From Desulfurococcaceae archaeon (GTDB taxonomy: Archaea > Thermoproteota > Thermoprotei_A > Sulfolobales > Desulfurococcaceae): 64,000 nt of DNA. Each line of letters begins with the position of its first letter. Position 1 is the stretch's first letter. Below the pieces are notes generated by a model. It searched no databases. It was not told where the DNA came from and saw only the letters and a list, made by a program, of their open reading frames with translations. Positions 7,932-12,882 of the stretch are shown here, piece after piece. The translations under genes were made by a program, and so were the position numbers. The DNA lies in NCBI GenBank assembly GCA_038888155.1, contig JAWAJB010000001.1:384001-448000 (forward strand), given 5' to 3'.

Positions 7932-8627
7932 GTGAAATTAGTAGCCATAAGCGACATCCATGGAAGGGCCCTCAACTTAGATAGGTTGAGCCGCAAGCTT
8001 GAAGAAACTGGGTTCAAGCCTGATGTAGTCTTAGTGGCTGGAGATATAACGCACTTCAAGGATTTTCAGGTTGCACGCGGGCTTCTGAGGAAAATAAAGG
8101 AGAGCGTTGGCTGCCGCGTTTTGTTCGTTCCCGGGAATTGCGATTCCCCCGAGCTCTTAGAGGTAGAGGAGCTAGATGAAGGAGTTATCAATATTCACTC
8201 GAGAAGCGCCGTTATTAATGGGTACGTGTTCTACGGGATAGGCGGGGGAGGCATAAGCCCTTTTCACACCCTCATAGAGTTTAGTGAGGAGGCCTTTAGG
8301 GATTTCCTAGAGAGGGCTGAAGCTCTCGTTAAAGGCGGGGAGCTAATATTGGTTACTCATCAGCCTATACGCGGTTTCTTTGATGACGTCGATGGAGGAA
8401 TAGGGTCTAAAGTTTTTGCCGAATACCTCAAGAGGCTGGAGCCCTTAGTGTGGGTAACTGGGCACGTCCACGAGAATAGCGGGTGGGCACGCTTAAACAA
8501 GACAACAGTTGTGCATCCAGGGCCCTTAACGCATGGGCTCTACGCAAGCCTTGAGGTATCTGGCAGCAGCGTTGTGCACGTCAGCGTTAAAAGCATAAGC
8601 GATCAGCCTAGCTGGAGTTCCTCCTAA
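7932..8627 (+). CDS. Calcineurin-like metallophosphoesterase
   Basis: SDIHG, AGDIT, PGNCD, VTHQP and GHVHE motifs. Confidence 0.9.
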   Translation: MKLVAISDIHGRALNLDRLSRKLEETGFKPDVVLVAGDITHFKDFQVARGLLRKIKESVGCRVLFVPGNCDSPELLEVEELDEGVINIHSRSAVINGYVFYGIGGGGISPFHTLIEFSEEAFRDFLERAEALVKGGELILVTHQPIRGFFDDVDGGIGSKVFAEYLKRLEPLVWVTGHVHENSGWARLNKTTVVHPGPLTHGLYASLEVSGSSVVHVSVKSISDQPSWSSS

Positions 8628-9903
8628 TAATTAACGCTATCGTAGTCGCTACTGTTATTGCTAAGAGCAGTATGTTCCTCGTCAATGCCATTAGCTGGGT
8701 AATGGATCCAAACAACCAGGGGCTGCCGCCGCTAATTAGCTCGCGAAAGAACTCAACTATTAGCGCTGCATTGAAAAGATCGGCAGCTCCGTATAGCGCT
8801 AAGAGGGGGTTGTCTAGCCCTATAGCAGCTAGCGGAGTTAATAGCAACATCATCTGGGGCGAGAAGACGTAATTGAGCACTACAGGTATAGATGCATATA
8901 TGTAGAGGTTAAGCGGCTCTAACTTAAATCCCCTCTTGAACGTAATAACTGTGACAAATAGTACGTAAATGCCCGCCGCGAGGAAGTAGAGCACTTTGTG
9001 TAGAGGCGACCATATATCTCTAACTGCAAGAATGTACAGGCAGTTTTCGCAATACCACGAGGCGTGGTGATTGATCATGGCTGTAAAGCCCAGGGGCGAA
9101 GCTATGTATAAAGCCAAGAAGGGAAGCACGCCTGAGAGCAAGAACCCGAGTAGGTAGCTCAACTGAGACTTCGCGCTTTTCCCTACTGTAATTATTTTCA
9201 GCAAGTAGTAGTACGCAACCCCTAAAGTGAGAAGCTTAGTTGAAAAGGATAAACCTAAGAACAGGCCTGCCTTAAAGTATTTTCTATCCCAGAAAGCCAG
9301 TATGCCGAGTAAGCACATTGCAGACGCAACAACATCCCAGTTGTAGACGAGATAGGTTATCGTTGATGGCGCTACGAACACCAGCGCGCACTTGAGGAGA
9401 CTAACCGCCCCTCTCACGTGGAGCTTGTACAGTGTGGCGCCTAGTACTATAGTGAAGCCCAGTATCATCAGGGACTGTAGATAATAGTGAGTGTTTACTG
9501 CTTCGCTGGGGTTTTCACTGTTGCTCAGCGCGATACACGTCGAAGTTGCCCACATTAGCCCAACTACGGGGGGATACTCAAATAGGTAGTCTACGTACGG
9601 CATGGGGCACTTGTTTAAACCCCTAGTGTAATCCCTATAAGATGCCTGGTTAAACCAGTAGCTAGACGCTCTGTCTCCAATGAGACGAGGGTAGAAGACG
9701 CCGTAAACTATATCGCTGTACTTAAAGCCAATGAGGTTGCCGTACGCAGGCGTAGCTGGGCTGTGAAGGTATGCAGAAGTAGCCCAAGATATTATTGATA
9801 CTGCTAAAATTGTTCCCCAAAGTTGATGTTTTTTACTAATGTGAAAAGAGGTCATACGCCTTGCCGCCCTAAGCACTGCCGATTTCGTTTGATACAAGCT
9901 CAT
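8608..9903 (-). CDS. GT-C fold membrane glycosyltransferase (GT87/DUF2029-like)
   Basis: YSDI, PYVDYLFEYPP, NWDV, GLSFSTK and VFSPQ motifs; multi-pass membrane protein. Confidence 0.75.
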   Translation of the reverse strand: MSLYQTKSAVLRAARRMTSFHISKKHQLWGTILAVSIISWATSAYLHSPATPAYGNLIGFKYSDIVYGVFYPRLIGDRASSYWFNQASYRDYTRGLNKCPMPYVDYLFEYPPVVGLMWATSTCIALSNSENPSEAVNTHYYLQSLMILGFTIVLGATLYKLHVRGAVSLLKCALVFVAPSTITYLVYNWDVVASAMCLLGILAFWDRKYFKAGLFLGLSFSTKLLTLGVAYYYLLKIITVGKSAKSQLSYLLGFLLSGVLPFLALYIASPLGFTAMINHHASWYCENCLYILAVRDIWSPLHKVLYFLAAGIYVLFVTVITFKRGFKLEPLNLYIYASIPVVLNYVFSPQMMLLLTPLAAIGLDNPLLALYGAADLFNAALIVEFFRELISGGSPWLFGSITQLMALTRNILLLAITVATTIALIIRRNSS

Positions 9904-10219
9904 GCGCCCACTCGTTATACATTATCGCAGTTAAACATATTTTGGTTCACCGCGCTTGAGTTTAGCTACGCTAAGTTCGCTTCTTCACTTACCGCTGTAT
10001 ATGCTTTGTTGCTACCTGCTAAAGTTGGCTAGAGTAGGAGGCGCAGCGCAGTAGCTAGCATATAAACTGTGGGCAAGCGCTCTATACCCATGATGCAGAA
10101 GCAACTTGGAGGAGTTTTCTCTAAGGCATCAATAGGCTTTCCCGCGATAGCAAGGCTTGATCTACCGAATGTTTGAGGGGCTATCATTAAAATTTAAAAG
10201 CCCTTCAATATATATAGAT

Positions 10220-10267
10220 ATGCCAATAAATTTGATGAGAGGGATTAAGGAGATGTTATTTAACTGA
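10220..10267 (+). other. 15-codon leader ORF MPINLMRGIKEMLFN* overlapping the upstream open frame of the asparagine synthetase-like gene
   Basis: In-frame ATGs at 10220, 10235 and 10253 (the last follows AAGGAG); TTTAAA box at 10193-10198; ends TTT AAC TGA. Confidence 0.45.
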
Positions 10268-10355
10268 GGGCGCCAACTCGACTAAAAACCATTACCTCCC
10301 CATCGACACTGCTATACTGGGGAAACTGAGCGAGAGGGTTGCAATAAGGGGCTGG

Positions 10356-11561
10356 GTGAAACCCCTCGGCGAGGGGGAAGTCCTCCTCTGGGATACTAAC
10401 GGTACATACAAGCTGAGAGTGAACTGCAACGGAGAGAGCCTCTCTAAGTTGCCCTGTGGTACGCTCGTTGAACTAACGGGCTCGATTAGTCCTAAAGGCC
10501 TGTGCGTTGATAACATCGAGGTGCTACACTCTCCTCTAAACGAAGAGGTAGCGTGCATACAGGACTTGCCAGATAACCCAATGGACTACGTCTCTAGGTA
10601 CTACCTATACGTGAGGCACCCCAAGTTAGCGAGGAGCGTTAAGACTTACTTCTACGTAGTGGACTACATGAGAAGGTACCTCGTTAAGCACGGATTTATA
10701 GAGTTACCCAGCGTGATTGTTGGTTACGCGAGCGATCCAGGGCTACGCGGTGCGTCGAAGATATCGGTAGATCTCTACGGCAAGAGGCTTGAGCTCCAGA
10801 GCAGCATGATTATGTACAAACAGCTCTACGCAAGCGTCTTTGATAAAGTATTTTACGCTGCGAGAAACCTCCGGCTGGAGCCCCCTGAAAACGCGCACAC
10901 AGGCAGGCACTTAACGGAGTTCACGCAAATCGATGTAGAGTGCGCAAACGTAAAGAGGGACGACGCGACTAAGCTAGCTGAGAGCATTATATACAGGTCA
11001 GTCAAGTGGATCCTAAGCAACCACATTGAAATTCTCGACGGAAGGGAAGCTGAGAGAGTTGAGAGAGAAATATCCAAGCCGCCGTATCCTAGGCTAACAT
11101 ACGAGGAGGCGCTTCTGAAGGTCAAAGCCCTAGGCTTAGAGGCTAGGTATGGTGAAGAGCTGAGCTTCAGGGCCGAAGTAGCTATTGCGGACAGCTATGG
11201 ATCGCCTGTTTGGATAGAGAGCTTCCCAGTTGAGAGCAGGGGCTTCTACTACCTCGAAGACGCTACTAGACCGGGACACAACATAGACTACAACCTACTG
11301 ATGCCAAGCGGCCATGGAGAAGTGCTAGACGGGGGATGTAGAGAGTACAGGTACGAGTACCTCTACAAGAGAATAGTGGATAGGCACAAGGAAAACCCTA
11401 CAAAATACGAGTGGTTTCTAGAGCTTGCTAAAGCTGGCCTCATTAGACCTACGTGCGGCTGGGGAATAGGAGTAGAGAGGCTTGTTAAGTACCTACAGGG
11501 ATTAAAGCACATCGCTTACGCTACACCGCACCCGAGGATACCTGGCCTTATAGGACCTTAG
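10356..11561 (+). CDS. Archaeal asparagine synthetase (AsnRS-like, class II aaRS fold) with a degenerate N-terminal OB-like domain; true 5' end probably upstream (frame open from 10239)
   Basis: DPGLRGA, RNLRLE, TGRHLTEFTQIDVE, GEVLDGG and GWGIGVERL motifs; upstream in-frame sequence reads ...ERVAIRGWVK, like the first OB strand of Asx-tRNA synthetases. Confidence 0.8.
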   Translation: MKPLGEGEVLLWDTNGTYKLRVNCNGESLSKLPCGTLVELTGSISPKGLCVDNIEVLHSPLNEEVACIQDLPDNPMDYVSRYYLYVRHPKLARSVKTYFYVVDYMRRYLVKHGFIELPSVIVGYASDPGLRGASKISVDLYGKRLELQSSMIMYKQLYASVFDKVFYAARNLRLEPPENAHTGRHLTEFTQIDVECANVKRDDATKLAESIIYRSVKWILSNHIEILDGREAERVEREISKPPYPRLTYEEALLKVKALGLEARYGEELSFRAEVAIADSYGSPVWIESFPVESRGFYYLEDATRPGHNIDYNLLMPSGHGEVLDGGCREYRYEYLYKRIVDRHKENPTKYEWFLELAKAGLIRPTCGWGIGVERLVKYLQGLKHIAYATPHPRIPGLIGP

Positions 11562-11613
11562 TGCAAAGTTAATACCCCCATTGCTTAATTTTTTACAGGC
11601 AACGGTGTCACCT

Positions 11614-12882
11614 TTGCTCGACCCCGAAGAAGTTAGAAAGGACTTCCCAATACTCGATAGAGTTATCAACAAGAAAAAGCTAGTCTACTTTGATAACGCT
11701 GCAACAACACACAAGCCAGTCCAAGTCATCAAAGCTATGGAAGAGTTCTACGGCAAGCACAACGCAAATATTCACCGTGGGCTACATACTTTAAGCCAGG
11801 AAGCCAGCCAAATGTATGAGGATGCACACGAAATTGTAGCTAAGTTCATAAACGCCTACTCCTGGAGGGAAGTGATATTCGTTAACAACACTACAGAGGC
11901 ATTAAATACTGTTGCTTATGGCTGGGCGCTTTGGAAGCTCAAGGAAGGCGATGAAGTGGTTGTAACTATAATGGATCACCACAGTAACATGCTCCCGTGG
12001 AGGATGATTGCCCAGTTGAGAAATGCCAAGGTCAGGTATATAGATATAACCGATGAGGGCTACTTAAGGTATGATCAGCTGGAAGAAGTCTTAAACGAGA
12101 AGACAAGAGTTGTCGCCTTTCCCATTGCAAGCAATGTCCTGGGGACAATCAACGACGCTAAGAGAATAGCCAAGATAGCACACGAGGTAGGTGCTATAGT
12201 TGTAGCCGACGGCGCTCAAAGCGTACCTCACCTGCCAACAAACGTAAGGGAGCTGGGGGTTGATTTCATAGCTTTCAGCGGCCATAAAATGCTTGGTCCC
12301 ACGGGGACGGGCGTGCTCTGGGGGAGAGCCGAGGTACTCGAGGAGATGAAGCCGTTCAAGGTAGGGGGAGATACAATAAAGGACGTAACTGTTGACAGCG
12401 TTGTGTGGCACGATTTGCCGTGGAGATTTGAGGCTGGCACACCTAATATAGCTGGAGGAGTGGGGTTGGCCGAAGCTGTCAAGTACCTTTCAAGGATAGG
12501 CATAGAGCGTGTTAGGGAGCACGAAGTAGAGTTAGTGAGGTACACGCTAAAGAGGTTCGAGGAACTAGCTAGCGAGATAACCTACTACGGTCCTCGAAGC
12601 CCATCTGATAAAACAGGGGTTGTCTCCTTCAACATTAAGTCTATGAACCACCACGTAGCGGGAGCAGCCCTTGACCTATTTGGAATAGCTGTTAGAAGTG
12701 GCATGCACTGTGCACATCCACTACATTACAGGCTTGGACTAAATGGCACAGTTAGGGCAAGCTACTACTTGTACAATACATTCGAGGAAGTGGACTACTT
12801 CATTGATGCGCTTGAAAAAATAGTAATGCTCAAGGACACTTTTACTAAGGAAAAACCGGATAAGCTGTGTACAGGGACATGA
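11614..12882 (+). CDS. sufS: Cysteine desulfurase, SufS type
   Basis: YFDNAATTHKP, NIHRG, FSGHKMLGPTG, EAGTP and RSGMHCA motifs; start placed at the TTG after an SD-like GGTG. Confidence 0.92.
   Translation: MLDPEEVRKDFPILDRVINKKKLVYFDNAATTHKPVQVIKAMEEFYGKHNANIHRGLHTLSQEASQMYEDAHEIVAKFINAYSWREVIFVNNTTEALNTVAYGWALWKLKEGDEVVVTIMDHHSNMLPWRMIAQLRNAKVRYIDITDEGYLRYDQLEEVLNEKTRVVAFPIASNVLGTINDAKRIAKIAHEVGAIVVADGAQSVPHLPTNVRELGVDFIAFSGHKMLGPTGTGVLWGRAEVLEEMKPFKVGGDTIKDVTVDSVVWHDLPWRFEAGTPNIAGGVGLAEAVKYLSRIGIERVREHEVELVRYTLKRFEELASEITYYGPRSPSDKTGVVSFNIKSMNHHVAGAALDLFGIAVRSGMHCAHPLHYRLGLNGTVRASYYLYNTFEEVDYFIDALEKIVMLKDTFTKEKPDKLCTGT

What the first reader, a model, noticed from the sequence alone, without database searches (positions are those of the whole stretch)
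10193..10400. Asparagine synthetase-like gene split at UUU-AAC-UGA: candidate Asn-sensing +1 frameshift
Seen: the synthetase frame is open from 10239 and encodes TEGANSTKNHYLPIDTAILGKLSERVAIRGWVK, but has no ATG/GTG/TTG until the GTG at 10356, which falls inside the RGWV motif. The nearby ATGs (10220, about 22 nt after TTTAAA and so suited to a leaderless mRNA; 10235; 10253 after AAGGAG) share another frame that ends TTT(10259) AAC(10262, Asn) TGA(10265). A +1 shift from UUU to UUA gives MPINLMRGIKEMLF-TEGANS... Known: hungry A-site codons promote +1 slippage, and product-sensing frameshifts regulate prfB and antizyme. Inference: scarce Asn-tRNA stalls the ribosome at AAC and allows synthetase synthesis, while ample Asn ends translation at UGA. 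I know of no such control described in archaea. Caveats: one extra T (assembly error or recent mutation) or a CTG/ATA-type start explains the sequence equally well; tRNA-Phe pairs weakly on UUA; two more AAC codons follow soon after the shift.
Basis: partly seen in the sequence, partly recalled or inferred. Interest (0 to 1): 0.8.

Follow-up and report, generated by a model that had tools for sequence, protein, structure and literature searches.

The report
Conserved +1 frameshift in asparagine-synthetase gene
An archaeal gene for an asparagine-making enzyme can only be read if the ribosome skips one base just before an asparagine codon three codons after the start, and because this break is kept in almost a whole family of hot-spring archaea it looks like a built-in switch that may turn the enzyme on when asparagine runs short.

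Summary
The synthetase frame opens at 10239. Its first ATG/GTG/TTG is the GTG at 10356, which lies inside the first strand of the predicted N-terminal OB fold. A second frame reads ATG(10253) TTA TTT AAC TGA.

Contigs from three other DNA runs, from two studies, are identical across the site. One of them is a variant strain.

The arrangement is conserved. In 48 of 50 genomes of the same family that carry the orthologue, plus 2 genomes filed in other families, the gene begins [A/G/T]TG-NNN-TTT-AAC. A 0-frame stop follows 0-7 codons later, and the enzyme is in the +1 frame. Two nested lineages and the sister clade have ordinary continuous genes. The flanking linker varies in sequence and length, so selection acts on the nucleotides TTTAAC rather than on the protein.

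The family has AsnRS, but neither GatA/GatB nor AsnB reached their family cut-offs.

Best reading: a programmed +1 ribosomal frameshift with UUU in the P site and the Asn codon AAC in the A site. I put this at about 0.85. I put tuning by Asn-tRNA supply at about 0.5; it is inferred and not tested.

I found no published description. It would be a new variant of prfB/antizyme-type autoregulation, and the first cellular +1 case in Archaea.

The parts
10209..10216 (+). TATA-like box (TATATATA). It sits at -44/-42 from ATG 10253, the position where about half of the orthologues have a TATA-like hexamer. It is the probable promoter element, which would give a 5' leader of roughly 15-20 nt.
   Evidence: The position match is observed. 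Promoter function is inferred.
10193..10198 (+). It lies further upstream than the box position seen in relatives.
10239..10252 (+). Purine-rich Shine-Dalgarno-like stretch (GAGGG at 10239-10243, AAGGAG at 10247-10252). It is complementary to the 16S 3' end ...GGATCACCTCCT. In relatives the equivalents are a GGTG box at about -12..-9 and (G/A)(A/G)GG(G/T) directly before the ATG.
   Evidence: G at -3 in 47 of 47 and at -2 in 43 of 47; 16S 3' end.
10253..10255 (+). ATG, the start codon of the 0 frame. A start codon stands exactly two codons before TTT in all 50 loci that carry the site.
10256..10258 (+). Second codon (TTA). It would occupy the E site at the moment of the shift. It varies among relatives, and its first base is T in 42 of 47.
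10259..10261 (+). TTT (Phe), the proposed P-site shift codon. It is invariant and never TTC.
10262..10264 (+). AAC (Asn), the 0-frame A-site codon and proposed 'hungry' sensor codon. It is invariant and never AAT. Its first base is the one skipped.
10265..10267 (+). TGA, the 0-frame stop, which ends the 4-residue peptide MLFN. In relatives the stop lies 0-7 codons after AAC.
10263..11561 (+). The +1 frame coding for the enzyme: 432 codons from ACT (Thr) to TAA. The product is an AsnA-like paralogue with full AsnRS architecture.
10263..10331 (+). N-terminal linker (residues 1-23). Residues 1-17 are predicted disordered. Its sequence is not conserved and its length varies from about 5 to 35 residues among orthologues, yet it is free of stops in every assessable locus.
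10332..10529 (+). Predicted five-stranded OB-fold domain (residues 24-89 of the +1 product).
   Evidence: the AspRS profile aligns from residue 31 of P0001.
10356..10358 (+). GTG, the first canonical start codon in the enzyme frame. It is residue 32, inside strand 1 of the OB fold. No start is conserved at this place in relatives.
10596..11537 (+). Class II aaRS catalytic core (Pfam tRNA-synt_2, residues 120-433 of P0001).

Best explanation
The gene for an AsnA-like enzyme is expressed through a programmed +1 ribosomal frameshift three codons after initiation. The enzyme belongs to the archaeal asparagine synthetase A family and has a full AsnRS-like fold.

Proposed steps in this window:
1. 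Ribosomes start at AUG 10253, guided by Shine-Dalgarno-like boxes, and read UUA then UUU.
2. With peptidyl-tRNA(Phe) on UUU in the P site and the Asn codon AAC in the A site, ribosomes that receive Asn-tRNA(Asn) promptly go on and terminate. Here termination is at the next codon; in relatives it is 0-7 codons later.
3. Ribosomes that wait shift one base forward (UUU to UUA), read ACU (Thr), and make the 432-residue enzyme (M-L-F-T-E-G-A-N...).

The family has AsnRS, and neither the tRNA-dependent route (GatA/GatB) nor AsnB reached their family cut-offs. Low asparagine should therefore lower Asn-tRNA charging, lengthen the pause and raise synthesis of the enzyme. That would be a feedback loop of the prfB/antizyme type, but with a sense codon as the sensor.

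Shown: the frame break, its conservation, the anatomy of the site and the metabolic context.
Inferred: that ribosomes shift there, the tRNA-slippage mechanism, and the dependence on Asn-tRNA.
For: 1. Frame break. No canonical start lies in the enzyme frame before residue 32, which is inside strand 1 of a confidently predicted OB fold (pLDDT 90.3). The site is identical in contigs of three further DNA runs from two studies.

2. Conservation. The orthologue (E<=1e-60) was found in 68 of 301 genomes of the class. Adding three genomes gives 50 genomes of family f1. Of these, 48 carry [A/G/T]TG-NNN-TTT-AAC with the enzyme in the +1 frame, as do G035 (f12) and G152 (f3). In one of the 48 (G008) a run of N prevents checking frame continuity.

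3. Shift window. In L014 the enzyme frame is closed by a TGA that overlaps the ATG. In 12 of 50 loci the 0 frame stops right after AAC. The shift must therefore fall within NNN-TTT-AAC.

4. Start codons. A 0-frame start lies exactly two codons before TTT in 50 of 50. In the enzyme frame, 26 of 50 have no ATG/GTG/TTG upstream of the site and only 6 have an ATG. The next downstream start lies anywhere from 2 to 126 codons away.

5. Nucleotide-level selection. TTTAAC is invariant, although the residues around it and the following linker vary in sequence and length. The third position of the preceding +1-frame codon is invariant while its first and second positions vary. Leu is always TTA.

6. Early 0-frame stop. 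All 50 stop within 7 codons (mean 1.9). In the same frame inside the gene bodies the mean is 12.3 and P(<=7) is 0.52.

7. Conserved G-rich, anti-SD-complementary boxes stand before the ATG.

8. Tree (quick method). All 49 frameshifted genes placed on the tree fall in one clade of 51 rows (SH-aLRT 99) with large internal divergence. The two continuous genes of G090 and G206 are nested in it, which implies losses. The sister clade of 17 f3 genes has normal starts.

9. Asn logic.
- The sensor codon codes for the enzyme's product.
- UUU-A re-pairs worse than UUU-U or UUU-C would, so the A appears to be kept for AAC.
- In f1, asnS is over its cut-off in 56 of 61 genomes, gatB in 0 of 61, gatA is matched in 0 of 18, and asnB is over its cut-off in 0 of 5 plus 0 in G000.
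- A single tRNA-Asn(GUU) gene was found.
Against: - No protein, ribosome-profiling or reporter data exist here. The only RNA contig (X7) starts at 10317 and does not cover the site.
- AAC is a common codon (19.4 per 1000). In-frame TTT-AAC pairs are not avoided in long ORFs of the genome (155 observed, 95.6 expected). The hexamer alone is therefore not strongly shift-prone.
- After the shift, tRNA-Phe(GAA) has a G-A mismatch at the wobble position of UUA.
- The SD-like box lies 6-7 nt from UUU, not about 3 nt as I recall for prfB.
- No conserved RNA structure was found.
- Twenty-four of 50 loci do have some GTG/TTG/ATG upstream in the enzyme frame, mostly the GTG inside the GGTG box. Ordinary initiation cannot be excluded there.
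- Further AAC codons in the enzyme frame would also be hungry under Asn shortage.
- Sister-clade genomes that depend on the same enzyme manage without the frameshift.
- The enzyme's activity is inferred from family resemblance alone. Its NCBIfam scores are below the curated cut-offs.
Confidence: 0.55

Rival explanations
1. A programmed +1 frameshift occurs but is constitutive. It sets a fixed low translation yield, or is a frozen 'corrected' indel. The Asn identity of the A-site codon is then a coincidence or serves only the mechanics of the site.
For: The evidence for a required frameshift is the same as above. AAC is not rare, and TTT-AAC is not avoided genome-wide. No stimulatory structure was found. 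Sister-clade genomes and two nested lineages (G090, G206) live with a continuous gene.
Against: By chance, the invariant A-site codon would match the enzyme's own product about 1 time in 20. A site built only for slippage would be expected to use UUU-U or UUU-C, on which tRNA-Phe re-pairs fully. Yet A is invariant in 50 of 50 across deep divergence. A frozen indel would be expected to be repaired often, and only two losses are seen.
Confidence: 0.28
2. There is no frameshift. The enzyme is initiated in its own frame at a non-canonical or weak start codon. This could be the GTG inside the GGTG box, or an ATA/CTG-type codon in the linker. The conserved ATG-NNN-TTT-AAC-stop is then a tiny upstream ORF that regulates this initiation, for example by stalling at AAC.
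For: Twenty-four of 50 loci have an ATG/GTG/TTG upstream of the site in the enzyme frame. Public annotations use such starts, with N-termini such as MDEGCYLT, MAEECHLT and MRQGFEGCYLT. ATA and CTG codons exist in the window's linker.
Against: No start, canonical or not, is conserved in position or frame in the enzyme frame. Twenty-six of 50 have none upstream. L014 has a TGA one codon before TTA, and L008 has 3 open codons. The GTG of the GGTG box falls in the enzyme frame in some loci and in the 0 frame in others. The linker stays free of stops from the site to the OB fold in every assessable locus although its sequence is not conserved. That is unexpected if translation began further downstream.
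Confidence: 0.08
3. The frame is restored at the RNA level by transcriptional slippage, editing, or excision of a 3n+1 bulge-helix-bulge intron, so that ribosomes read a continuous message.
For: The RNA contig available (X7, 10317-10959) does not cover the site, so the mRNA sequence at 10253-10267 is unseen.
Against: The site has only T3 and A2 runs. These are far shorter than the homopolymers known to give polymerase slippage (recalled). No conserved secondary structure lies around the site (alifold energy 0, mean z -0.4, 1 of 47 below -2). There is no Rfam match.
Confidence: 0.04
4. Assembly or sequencing error, or a decaying pseudogene.
For: Nothing specific: a single extra base would give the same picture in a single genome.
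Against: The sequence is identical in contigs of three other runs, including a variant strain. The same break occurs in 50 genomes. The 430-codon frame is intact in all of them, with 69 invariant columns among the 29 orthologues aligned.
Confidence: 0.01

Closest known systems
Bacterial prfB (release factor 2) autoregulatory +1 frameshift
   Same: A short 0-frame ORF near the 5' end of the gene, a +1 shift needed for the full product, an upstream Shine-Dalgarno-like element, and wide phylogenetic conservation with occasional loss. The logic is also the same: the gene's product speeds decoding of the A-site codon and so lowers its own synthesis. For conservation across bacteria see PMC12421855 (search listing and start of abstract only). 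The site details CUU-UGA-C and the 3-nt SD spacing are recalled.
   Different: Here the A-site codon is a sense codon (AAC), not a stop. The sensed quantity would be an aminoacyl-tRNA, not a protein factor. The P-site codon is UUU, with imperfect +1 re-pairing. The SD-like box is 6-7 nt away. The site is 3 codons from the start rather than about 25. The organisms are archaea.
Antizyme (OAZ) +1 frameshift sensing polyamines
   Same: A +1 shift that acts as both sensor and effector of a metabolic feedback loop (described in the review PMC8211752, passages read).
   Different: Antizyme uses a stop codon and polyamines with RNA stimulators, and is eukaryotic. Its feedback sign is opposite: the metabolite promotes the shift.
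Influenza A PA-X +1 frameshift at UCC_UUU_CGU, and yeast Ty1/Ty3 'hungry sense codon' sites
   Same: A +1 shift with a slowly decoded sense codon in the A site. In PA-X the P-site codon is also UUU (title and start of abstract in the search listing). The Ty1 site CUU-AGG-C and the Ty3 site GCG-AGU-U are recalled.
   Different: Those sites rely on constitutively rare codons or tRNAs and give fixed ratios of two products. Here the codon is common, the 0-frame product is a 4-12 residue peptide, and the codon matches the enzyme's own amino acid.
Saccharolobus solfataricus fucA1 -1 frameshift
   Same: A cellular archaeal gene split into two frames and expressed by recoding. The 2021 review states that it is the only case of -1 PRF reported in Archaea, and its account of archaeal recoding mentions no cellular +1 case (PMC8211752, passages read).
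   Different: It shifts in the -1 direction at an A-AAA-AAT heptamer in a 40-base overlap in mid-gene. It has no known regulatory logic, and other archaea named in the review carry full-length homologues. Here the shift is +1, at the start of the gene, and family-wide.
Leader-peptide attenuation (trpL, pheL, hisL type) and T-box control of amino-acid and aaRS genes
   Same: They sense the charging of a specific tRNA through a cognate codon (leader peptides) or the tRNA itself (T-box) to switch on genes that restore supply of that amino acid. pheL paper PMC3082878: search listing only.
   Different: Those systems act through alternative RNA hairpins on transcription or initiation. Here no conserved structure was found, there is no Rfam match, and the readout would be the reading frame itself.
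Archaeal asparagine synthetase A (AS-AR; PDB 1nnh, 3p8t) and AsnRS (PDB 1x54, 9sh8)
   Same: The catalytic core is most similar in sequence to AS-AR and AsnRS (4e-39 each). The C-terminal PRIPG motif is shared with 1nnh. The full-length fold matches AsnRS at TM 0.82.
   Different: The solved AS-AR proteins are 294 residues and lack the N-terminal OB domain, which this protein keeps. Scores against the AsnRS and AsnA NCBIfam models are below their cut-offs. The true AsnRS of the genome is another gene.

Membership tests
Programmed +1 ribosomal frameshift (recoding site) | The full-length product needs a change from a short 0-frame ORF that has its own start to a long +1 ORF that has none. | tested here: met
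   The 0-frame start is in place in 50 of 50. In 26 of 50 the enzyme frame has no canonical start upstream. L014 has a TGA one codon before the site.
Programmed +1 ribosomal frameshift (recoding site) | The shift site is conserved at nucleotide level among orthologues, beyond what the protein needs. | tested here: met
   TTTAAC is invariant in 50 genomes while the flanking residues and the linker vary.
Programmed +1 ribosomal frameshift (recoding site) | A slow-to-decode A-site codon (a stop codon, or a rare or starved sense codon). | tested here: inconclusive
   AAC is not rare (19.4 per 1000). It could be slow only when Asn-tRNA is short, which cannot be tested here.
Programmed +1 ribosomal frameshift (recoding site) | The P-site tRNA is able to re-pair in the +1 frame. 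| tested here: inconclusive
   For UUU to UUA with anticodon GAA, two of three positions pair and the wobble is G-A. TTT is never TTC (50 of 50), which argues that re-pairing matters.
Programmed +1 ribosomal frameshift (recoding site) | A trans-frame protein is actually made. | not testable with these tools
   No proteomic or ribosome-profiling data are available. The RNA contig does not reach the site.
prfB-type autoregulation | The gene product accelerates decoding of the A-site codon at its own shift site. | not testable with these tools
   This is inferred from the Asn codon and the Asn-related enzyme, and from AsnRS being present while GatA/GatB and AsnB stay below cut-off.
prfB-type autoregulation | An SD-like stimulator about 3 nt upstream of the P-site codon (recalled). 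| tested here: not met
   The SD-like (G/A)(A/G)GG(G/T) box is conserved, but it lies 6-7 nt from UUU.
Archaeal asparagine synthetase A (NCBIfam PRK06462 models) | Score over the curated cut-off of an equivalog model. | tested here: not met
   NF005052 scores 286 bits against a cut-off of 368. NF005054 scores 236 against 309. These are the best-scoring families, and sources name the orthologues 'asparagine synthetase A'.
Asparaginyl-tRNA synthetase | Score over the curated cut-off of asnS models. | tested here: not met
   TIGR00457 scores 134.9 against 342.6. NF003037 scores 150 against 414. The genome's real AsnRS scores 513. The fold is nevertheless AsnRS-like over its full length.
Class II aaRS core (Pfam tRNA-synt_2) | Pfam gathering score. 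| tested here: met
   150.6 bits against a cut-off of 25.
Leader-peptide transcription attenuation | Alternative terminator/antiterminator hairpins downstream of a leader ORF that carries cognate codons. | tested here: not met
   No conserved structure was found (alifold 0, mean z -0.4). The leader has a single Asn codon.
T-box or other known RNA regulator | A match to an Rfam family. | tested here: not met
   There were 0 matches at E<=1 in 9900-10500.

The most novel reading that the evidence does not exclude
A family-wide frameshift switch in hyperthermophilic archaea that senses an aminoacyl-tRNA. The ribosome itself measures Asn-tRNA(Asn) supply at a single AAC codon three codons after the start. 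It converts a shortage into a +1 shift that produces the enzyme making asparagine. This would be the first cellular +1 programmed frameshift in Archaea. It would also be the first natural case in which a starved sense codon serves as the sensor of an autoregulatory frameshift for the cognate amino acid.
Probability: 0.5. Interest if true: 0.9.

Novelty: new variant of a known kind. Interest (0 to 1): 0.85.

Why it matters
Recoding in Archaea is almost unexplored. [quoted passage not shown]

This is a deeply conserved site, found in 50 genomes of many genera. It has a very small, well-bracketed shift window and natural 'revertants'. It therefore offers a clean system for studying how archaeal ribosomes keep or lose frame.

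If the Asn dependence holds, amino-acid supply can be regulated with no RNA structure and no protein factor, only a codon placed behind a slippery Phe codon. That principle has been studied in the laboratory as 'hungry codon' frameshifting, but I know of no case where a cell uses it for feedback.

There is also a practical consequence. Gene callers currently give these enzymes arbitrary N-termini of 405-478 residues, some cutting into the OB fold. The annotation of 'asparagine synthetase A' in this family needs a recoding flag.

Tried and rejected
- Assembly error: rejected.
- Pseudogene: rejected.
- Start at GTG 10356: rejected. It is residue 32, inside strand 1 of the predicted OB fold, and relatives have no start there.
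- Leaderless start at ATG 10220: neither needed nor supported by relatives. It is in the same frame as ATG 10253, so it would not change the reading.
- Downstream stimulatory RNA structure or BHB intron: none found. RNAalifold on 47 anchored sequences gave energy 0. Single-sequence z-scores averaged -0.4, and 1 of 47 was below -2.
- Known RNA family: none.
- Analogous 'start-NNN-TTT-codon' designs before other genes of the own genome: none. Only this locus passed, out of 82 pattern hits.
- Avoidance of in-frame TTT-AAC in long ORFs, as a sign of an intrinsically slippery hexamer: not seen (ratio 1.62).
- Quadruplet-reading tRNA: none of the 69 ARAGORN calls has a four-base anticodon. This is a weak test.
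- A conserved frameshift in gatA elsewhere in the order. This was prompted by a remark on Hyperthermus butylicus gatA in PMC2678158 (passage read). The main gatA matches in the 151 genomes searched have no internal stops.
- The search for related loci on genome contigs returned mostly distant bacterial aaRS loci (L076-L155). These were not used.
- RNA evidence at the site: the one RNA run (X7) covers only 10317-10959 and 11328-11600. It shows neither the mRNA sequence at the site nor a 5' end.
- The careful maximum-likelihood search did not finish within the time limit. The quick IQ-TREE tree was used, with SH-aLRT support only. G008 was left out of the tree because its locus is broken by runs of N.

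Literature searches found no description of this site:
- Searches returned 10 and 2 papers, none relevant; one search returned 0.
- Searches also listed nothing on it.
- 'asparagin' occurs 0 times in PMC8211752 and 0 times in PMC3711429.
- 'asparagine synth', 'asparaginyl' and 'UUU AAC' occur 0 times in the first 300,000 characters of PMC5009743.
- Supplementary tables were not consulted. Those of PMC3711429, which list frameshift gene clusters, may bear on this.

Full report
THE OBSERVATION. The frame that encodes the synthetase-like protein is open from 10239, just after a TGA at 10236-10238. Its first ATG/GTG/TTG is the GTG at 10356. Another frame holds ATG 10220, ATG 10235 and ATG 10253 and ends TTT(10259) AAC(10262) TGA(10265). 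A move of one base forward after TTT joins M-L-F to T-E-G-A-N-S...

Contigs assembled from three other DNA runs of two studies (X2, X3, X4) show no difference at 10253-10267. X4 is a variant strain with eight substitutions and a one-base deletion at 10168. A sequencing or assembly error is therefore excluded.

WHAT THE GENE IS.
- The +1 frame encodes a class II aaRS-type protein. Pfam tRNA-synt_2 matches at 6.8e-44.
- Its best NCBIfam matches are the 'asparagine synthetase A' models (4e-85). They are followed by AsnRS and archaeal AspRS models. All are below the curated cut-offs.
- The closest solved proteins by sequence are the Pyrococcus AsnRS-related protein / archaeal asparagine synthetase A (1nnh, 3p8t) and Pyrococcus AsnRS (1x54).
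- An AlphaFold2 model built on 29 orthologues is confident (pLDDT 90.3, pTM 0.89). It superposes over its full length on AsnRS structures (9sh8, TM 0.82).
- The model has a disordered tail (residues 1-17) and a five-stranded OB barrel (strands 24-36, 39-43, 48-55, 67-76, 79-89), followed by the catalytic core.
- The GTG at 10356 is residue 32, in the middle of the first strand. It is not a credible start.
- The genome's real AsnRS and AspRS are other genes on the same contig. They score 513 and 528 bits, over their cut-offs.
- Public sources call the orthologues 'asparagine synthetase A' or 'aspartate--ammonia ligase' of Desulfurococcaceae. They give them N-termini that differ from record to record, with lengths of 405 to 478 residues in the eight I read.

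THE KEY RESULT: THE BREAK IS CONSERVED.
A search of 301 genomes of the class found the orthologue (E<=1e-60) in 68: f1 46 of 54, f3 18 of 46, f12 1 of 2, f8 1 of 5 and f9 1 of 52. With three more f1 genomes from the relatives search and the own genome, 50 genomes of family f1 carry it. I fetched the 5' region of all of these and of the hits in other families.

In 48 of the 50 f1 genomes, and in G035 (f12) and G152 (f3), the gene begins with a start codon, any codon, TTT and AAC, and the enzyme lies in the +1 frame. Among the 47 distinct sequences, the start codon is ATG in 43, GTG in 3 and TTG in 1. In G008 a run of 32 N lies between the site and the OB domain, so frame continuity cannot be checked there.

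The two f1 exceptions, G090 and G206, have a continuous frame with an ATG. The other 17 f3 genes, and those of f8 and f9, also have ordinary starts close to the first OB strand.

On a quick maximum-likelihood tree of 71 rows, all 49 frameshifted genes placed on it fall in one clade of 51 rows (SH-aLRT 99). G090 and G206 are nested beside frameshifted sisters, and the f3 genes with normal starts form the sister clade. The simplest history is one gain, long retention, and two losses. Tip-to-tip distances in the clade exceed one change per site, and protein identity to the window's copy falls to 38-44%.

WHY THIS IS A RECODING SIGNAL AND NOT A PROTEIN MOTIF OR AN ORDINARY START.
1. The shift window is tightly bracketed. 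In L014 a TGA overlapping the ATG closes the enzyme frame one codon before TTA. In many other loci the enzyme frame opens only 3-6 codons upstream. In 12 of 50 the 0 frame stops directly after AAC.
2. A 0-frame start stands exactly two codons before TTT in 50 of 50. In the enzyme frame, 26 of 50 have no ATG/GTG/TTG upstream and only 6 have an ATG. Most of the rest is the GTG inside a GGTG box, which falls in different frames in different genomes. The next start downstream lies anywhere from 2 to 126 codons away.
3. The conservation has the wrong pattern for a protein constraint. TTTAAC is invariant. The codon before TTA in the enzyme frame varies at positions 1 and 2 but never at position 3. 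Leu is always TTA. The 5-35 residues that follow are not conserved in sequence or length and are predicted disordered.
4. That unconserved linker is nevertheless free of stops from the site to the OB fold in every assessable locus.
5. The 0 frame ends within 7 codons of AAC in all 50 (mean 1.9). In the same frame inside the gene bodies the mean distance to a stop is 12.3 codons, and only 52% of positions have one within 7.

OTHER ANATOMY.
- Upstream of the ATG, G is invariant at -3 (47 of 47) and nearly so at -2 (43 of 47). G or T stands at -1, and a GGTG box lies near -12 to -9.
- Both boxes are complementary to the 3' end of the complete 16S rRNA gene found on contig C31 of this assembly (...GGATCACCTCCT).
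- The distal box is at normal distance for initiation at the ATG. The proximal box is too close for that, and lies 6-7 nt from UUU.
- The base after AAC is A, T or G and never C (0 of 47). The +1 codon is therefore always Thr and never the rarest Thr codon, ACC.
- TATA-like hexamers lie 40-45 nt upstream of the ATG in about half of the sequences examined. In the window the matching element is TATATA at 10209-10216.
- No conserved RNA structure and no Rfam family was found.

MECHANISM.
Shown: the frame change is needed and must happen at NNN-TTT-AAC.
Inferred: with tRNA-Phe on UUU in the P site and AAC in an empty A site, the peptidyl-tRNA slips to UUA and Thr-tRNA reads ACN.

TTT is never TTC. 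TTC could not re-pair at all, so this argues for slippage rather than mere occlusion of the first A. The invariant A gives a G-A wobble mismatch, where U or C would give perfect re-pairing. This suggests that the A is kept because the A-site codon has to be AAC.

The role of the proximal SD-like box, and of the U-initial second codon that sits in the E site, is conjecture. They might hold or stress the ribosome at this position.

THE CASE FOR ASN SENSING. The invariant A-site codon specifies the amino acid that the enzyme family makes. In family f1:
- AsnRS is over its cut-off in 56 of 61 genomes.
- GatB is over its cut-off in 0 of 61.
- GatA is matched in 0 of 18, while most other families of the order have it.
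- AsnB is over its cut-off in none of five near-complete genomes, nor in the own genome.

Asn-tRNA must therefore be charged with free asparagine, and this enzyme is the only recognisable way to make it. One tRNA-Asn(GUU) gene was found. A pause at AAC when charging is low, with a shift as its outcome, would close a feedback loop.

THE CASE AGAINST ASN SENSING.
- AAC is common, and in-frame TTT-AAC is not avoided.
- Later AAC codons in the enzyme frame would also stall.
- Sister-clade genomes without GatA use the same enzyme without the device.
- Nothing here measures shifting.

I put the required +1 frameshift at about 0.85 and its control by Asn-tRNA at about 0.5.

COMPARISON WITH WHAT IS KNOWN. 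The logic is that of prfB and antizyme. The site type, a P-site UUU with a slowly decoded sense codon in the A site, resembles influenza PA-X (UCC_UUU_CGU; search listing) and, as I recall them, the yeast Ty elements. The physiological idea resembles leader-peptide attenuation and T-box control.

It differs from each of these. It uses a sense-codon sensor matched to the product and has no RNA structure. It lies three codons from the start and occurs in Archaea.

[quoted passage not shown] It notes a probable +1 event in one virus and a suggested case in Mg chelatase, and does not mention asparagine (passages). The 2016 survey by Atkins and colleagues (first 300,000 characters) and the GeneTack survey of 1106 genomes do not mention asparagine in the text I could search either. 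Their supplements were not available. Seven full-text searches found no description.

VERDICT. This is a real, deeply conserved recoding site. It is very probably a programmed +1 frameshift and plausibly an Asn-tRNA sensor. It is a new variant of a known kind, of high interest, and directly testable in cultivable relatives.

Noticed in passing
whole assembly G000 (contigs C1-C134): The assembly looks composite. It has 2.42 Mb against 1.2-1.5 Mb in the 16 congeners, 6.4% contamination, three tRNA-Phe genes, and one complete (C31) plus one partial (C4) 16S rRNA gene. The GC content of the large contigs ranges from 0.41 to 0.51. The 16S 3' end used for the anti-SD comes from C31 and may not belong to the window's organism, although this motif is widely conserved.
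   Followed up: partly
G000:C4:110629-110715: With introns allowed, ARAGORN calls a tRNA with anticodon TTA ('tRNA-Stop') that has a 12-base intron. It may be a misplaced intron call in an ordinary tRNA.
   Followed up: no
window 10036-10177, 10168: Run X4 holds a variant strain. In the intergenic region upstream of the site it has four substitutions (10036, 10042, 10102, 10177) and a one-base deletion at 10168. It has four further substitutions in the gene (10376, 11183, 11184, 11330). The recoding site itself is untouched.
   Followed up: partly
window 10259-10264 and all 50 orthologous sites: TTTAAC also contains TAA in the -1 frame. A backward slip of tRNA-Phe is possible where the base before TTT is T (22 of 47). 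It would meet a stop at once.
   Followed up: no
proteins P0006, P0010, P0024, P0028, P0037, P0040, P0046, P0053: Public gene calls for the orthologues start at arbitrary in-frame codons. Some lie upstream of the site (N-termini such as MDEGCYLT and MAEECHLT). Others lie inside or just before the OB fold (MLAWIAAK, MLEKIRIRAWIK). Lengths range from 405 to 478 residues, and none is flagged as recoded in the names shown.
   Followed up: partly
order-level distribution: The AsnA-like gene and GatA are largely complementary among families of the order. Family f1 has the AsnA-like gene in 46 of 54 genomes and GatA in 0 of 18. Families f13, f5 and f7 have no AsnA-like orthologue at E<=1e-60 but have GatA in all genomes searched. 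Family f3 is mixed.
   Followed up: partly
literature, PMC2678158 (passage read): The Staphylothermus marinus genome paper remarks that Hyperthermus butylicus lacks AsnRS. It adds that its apparently essential amidotransferase A subunit (Hbut_0594) carries a frameshift 'but may still be functional'. No internal stops were seen in the main gatA matches of the 151 genomes searched. That genome was not examined by name.
   Followed up: partly
window 11581-12882 (+) and 8608-9903 (-): The neighbours are a 433-aa ORF 20 nt downstream on the same strand and a 431-aa hydrophobic ORF on the opposite strand upstream. Neither was searched against families. Whether the downstream ORF is co-transcribed with the frameshifted gene is unknown.
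   Followed up: no
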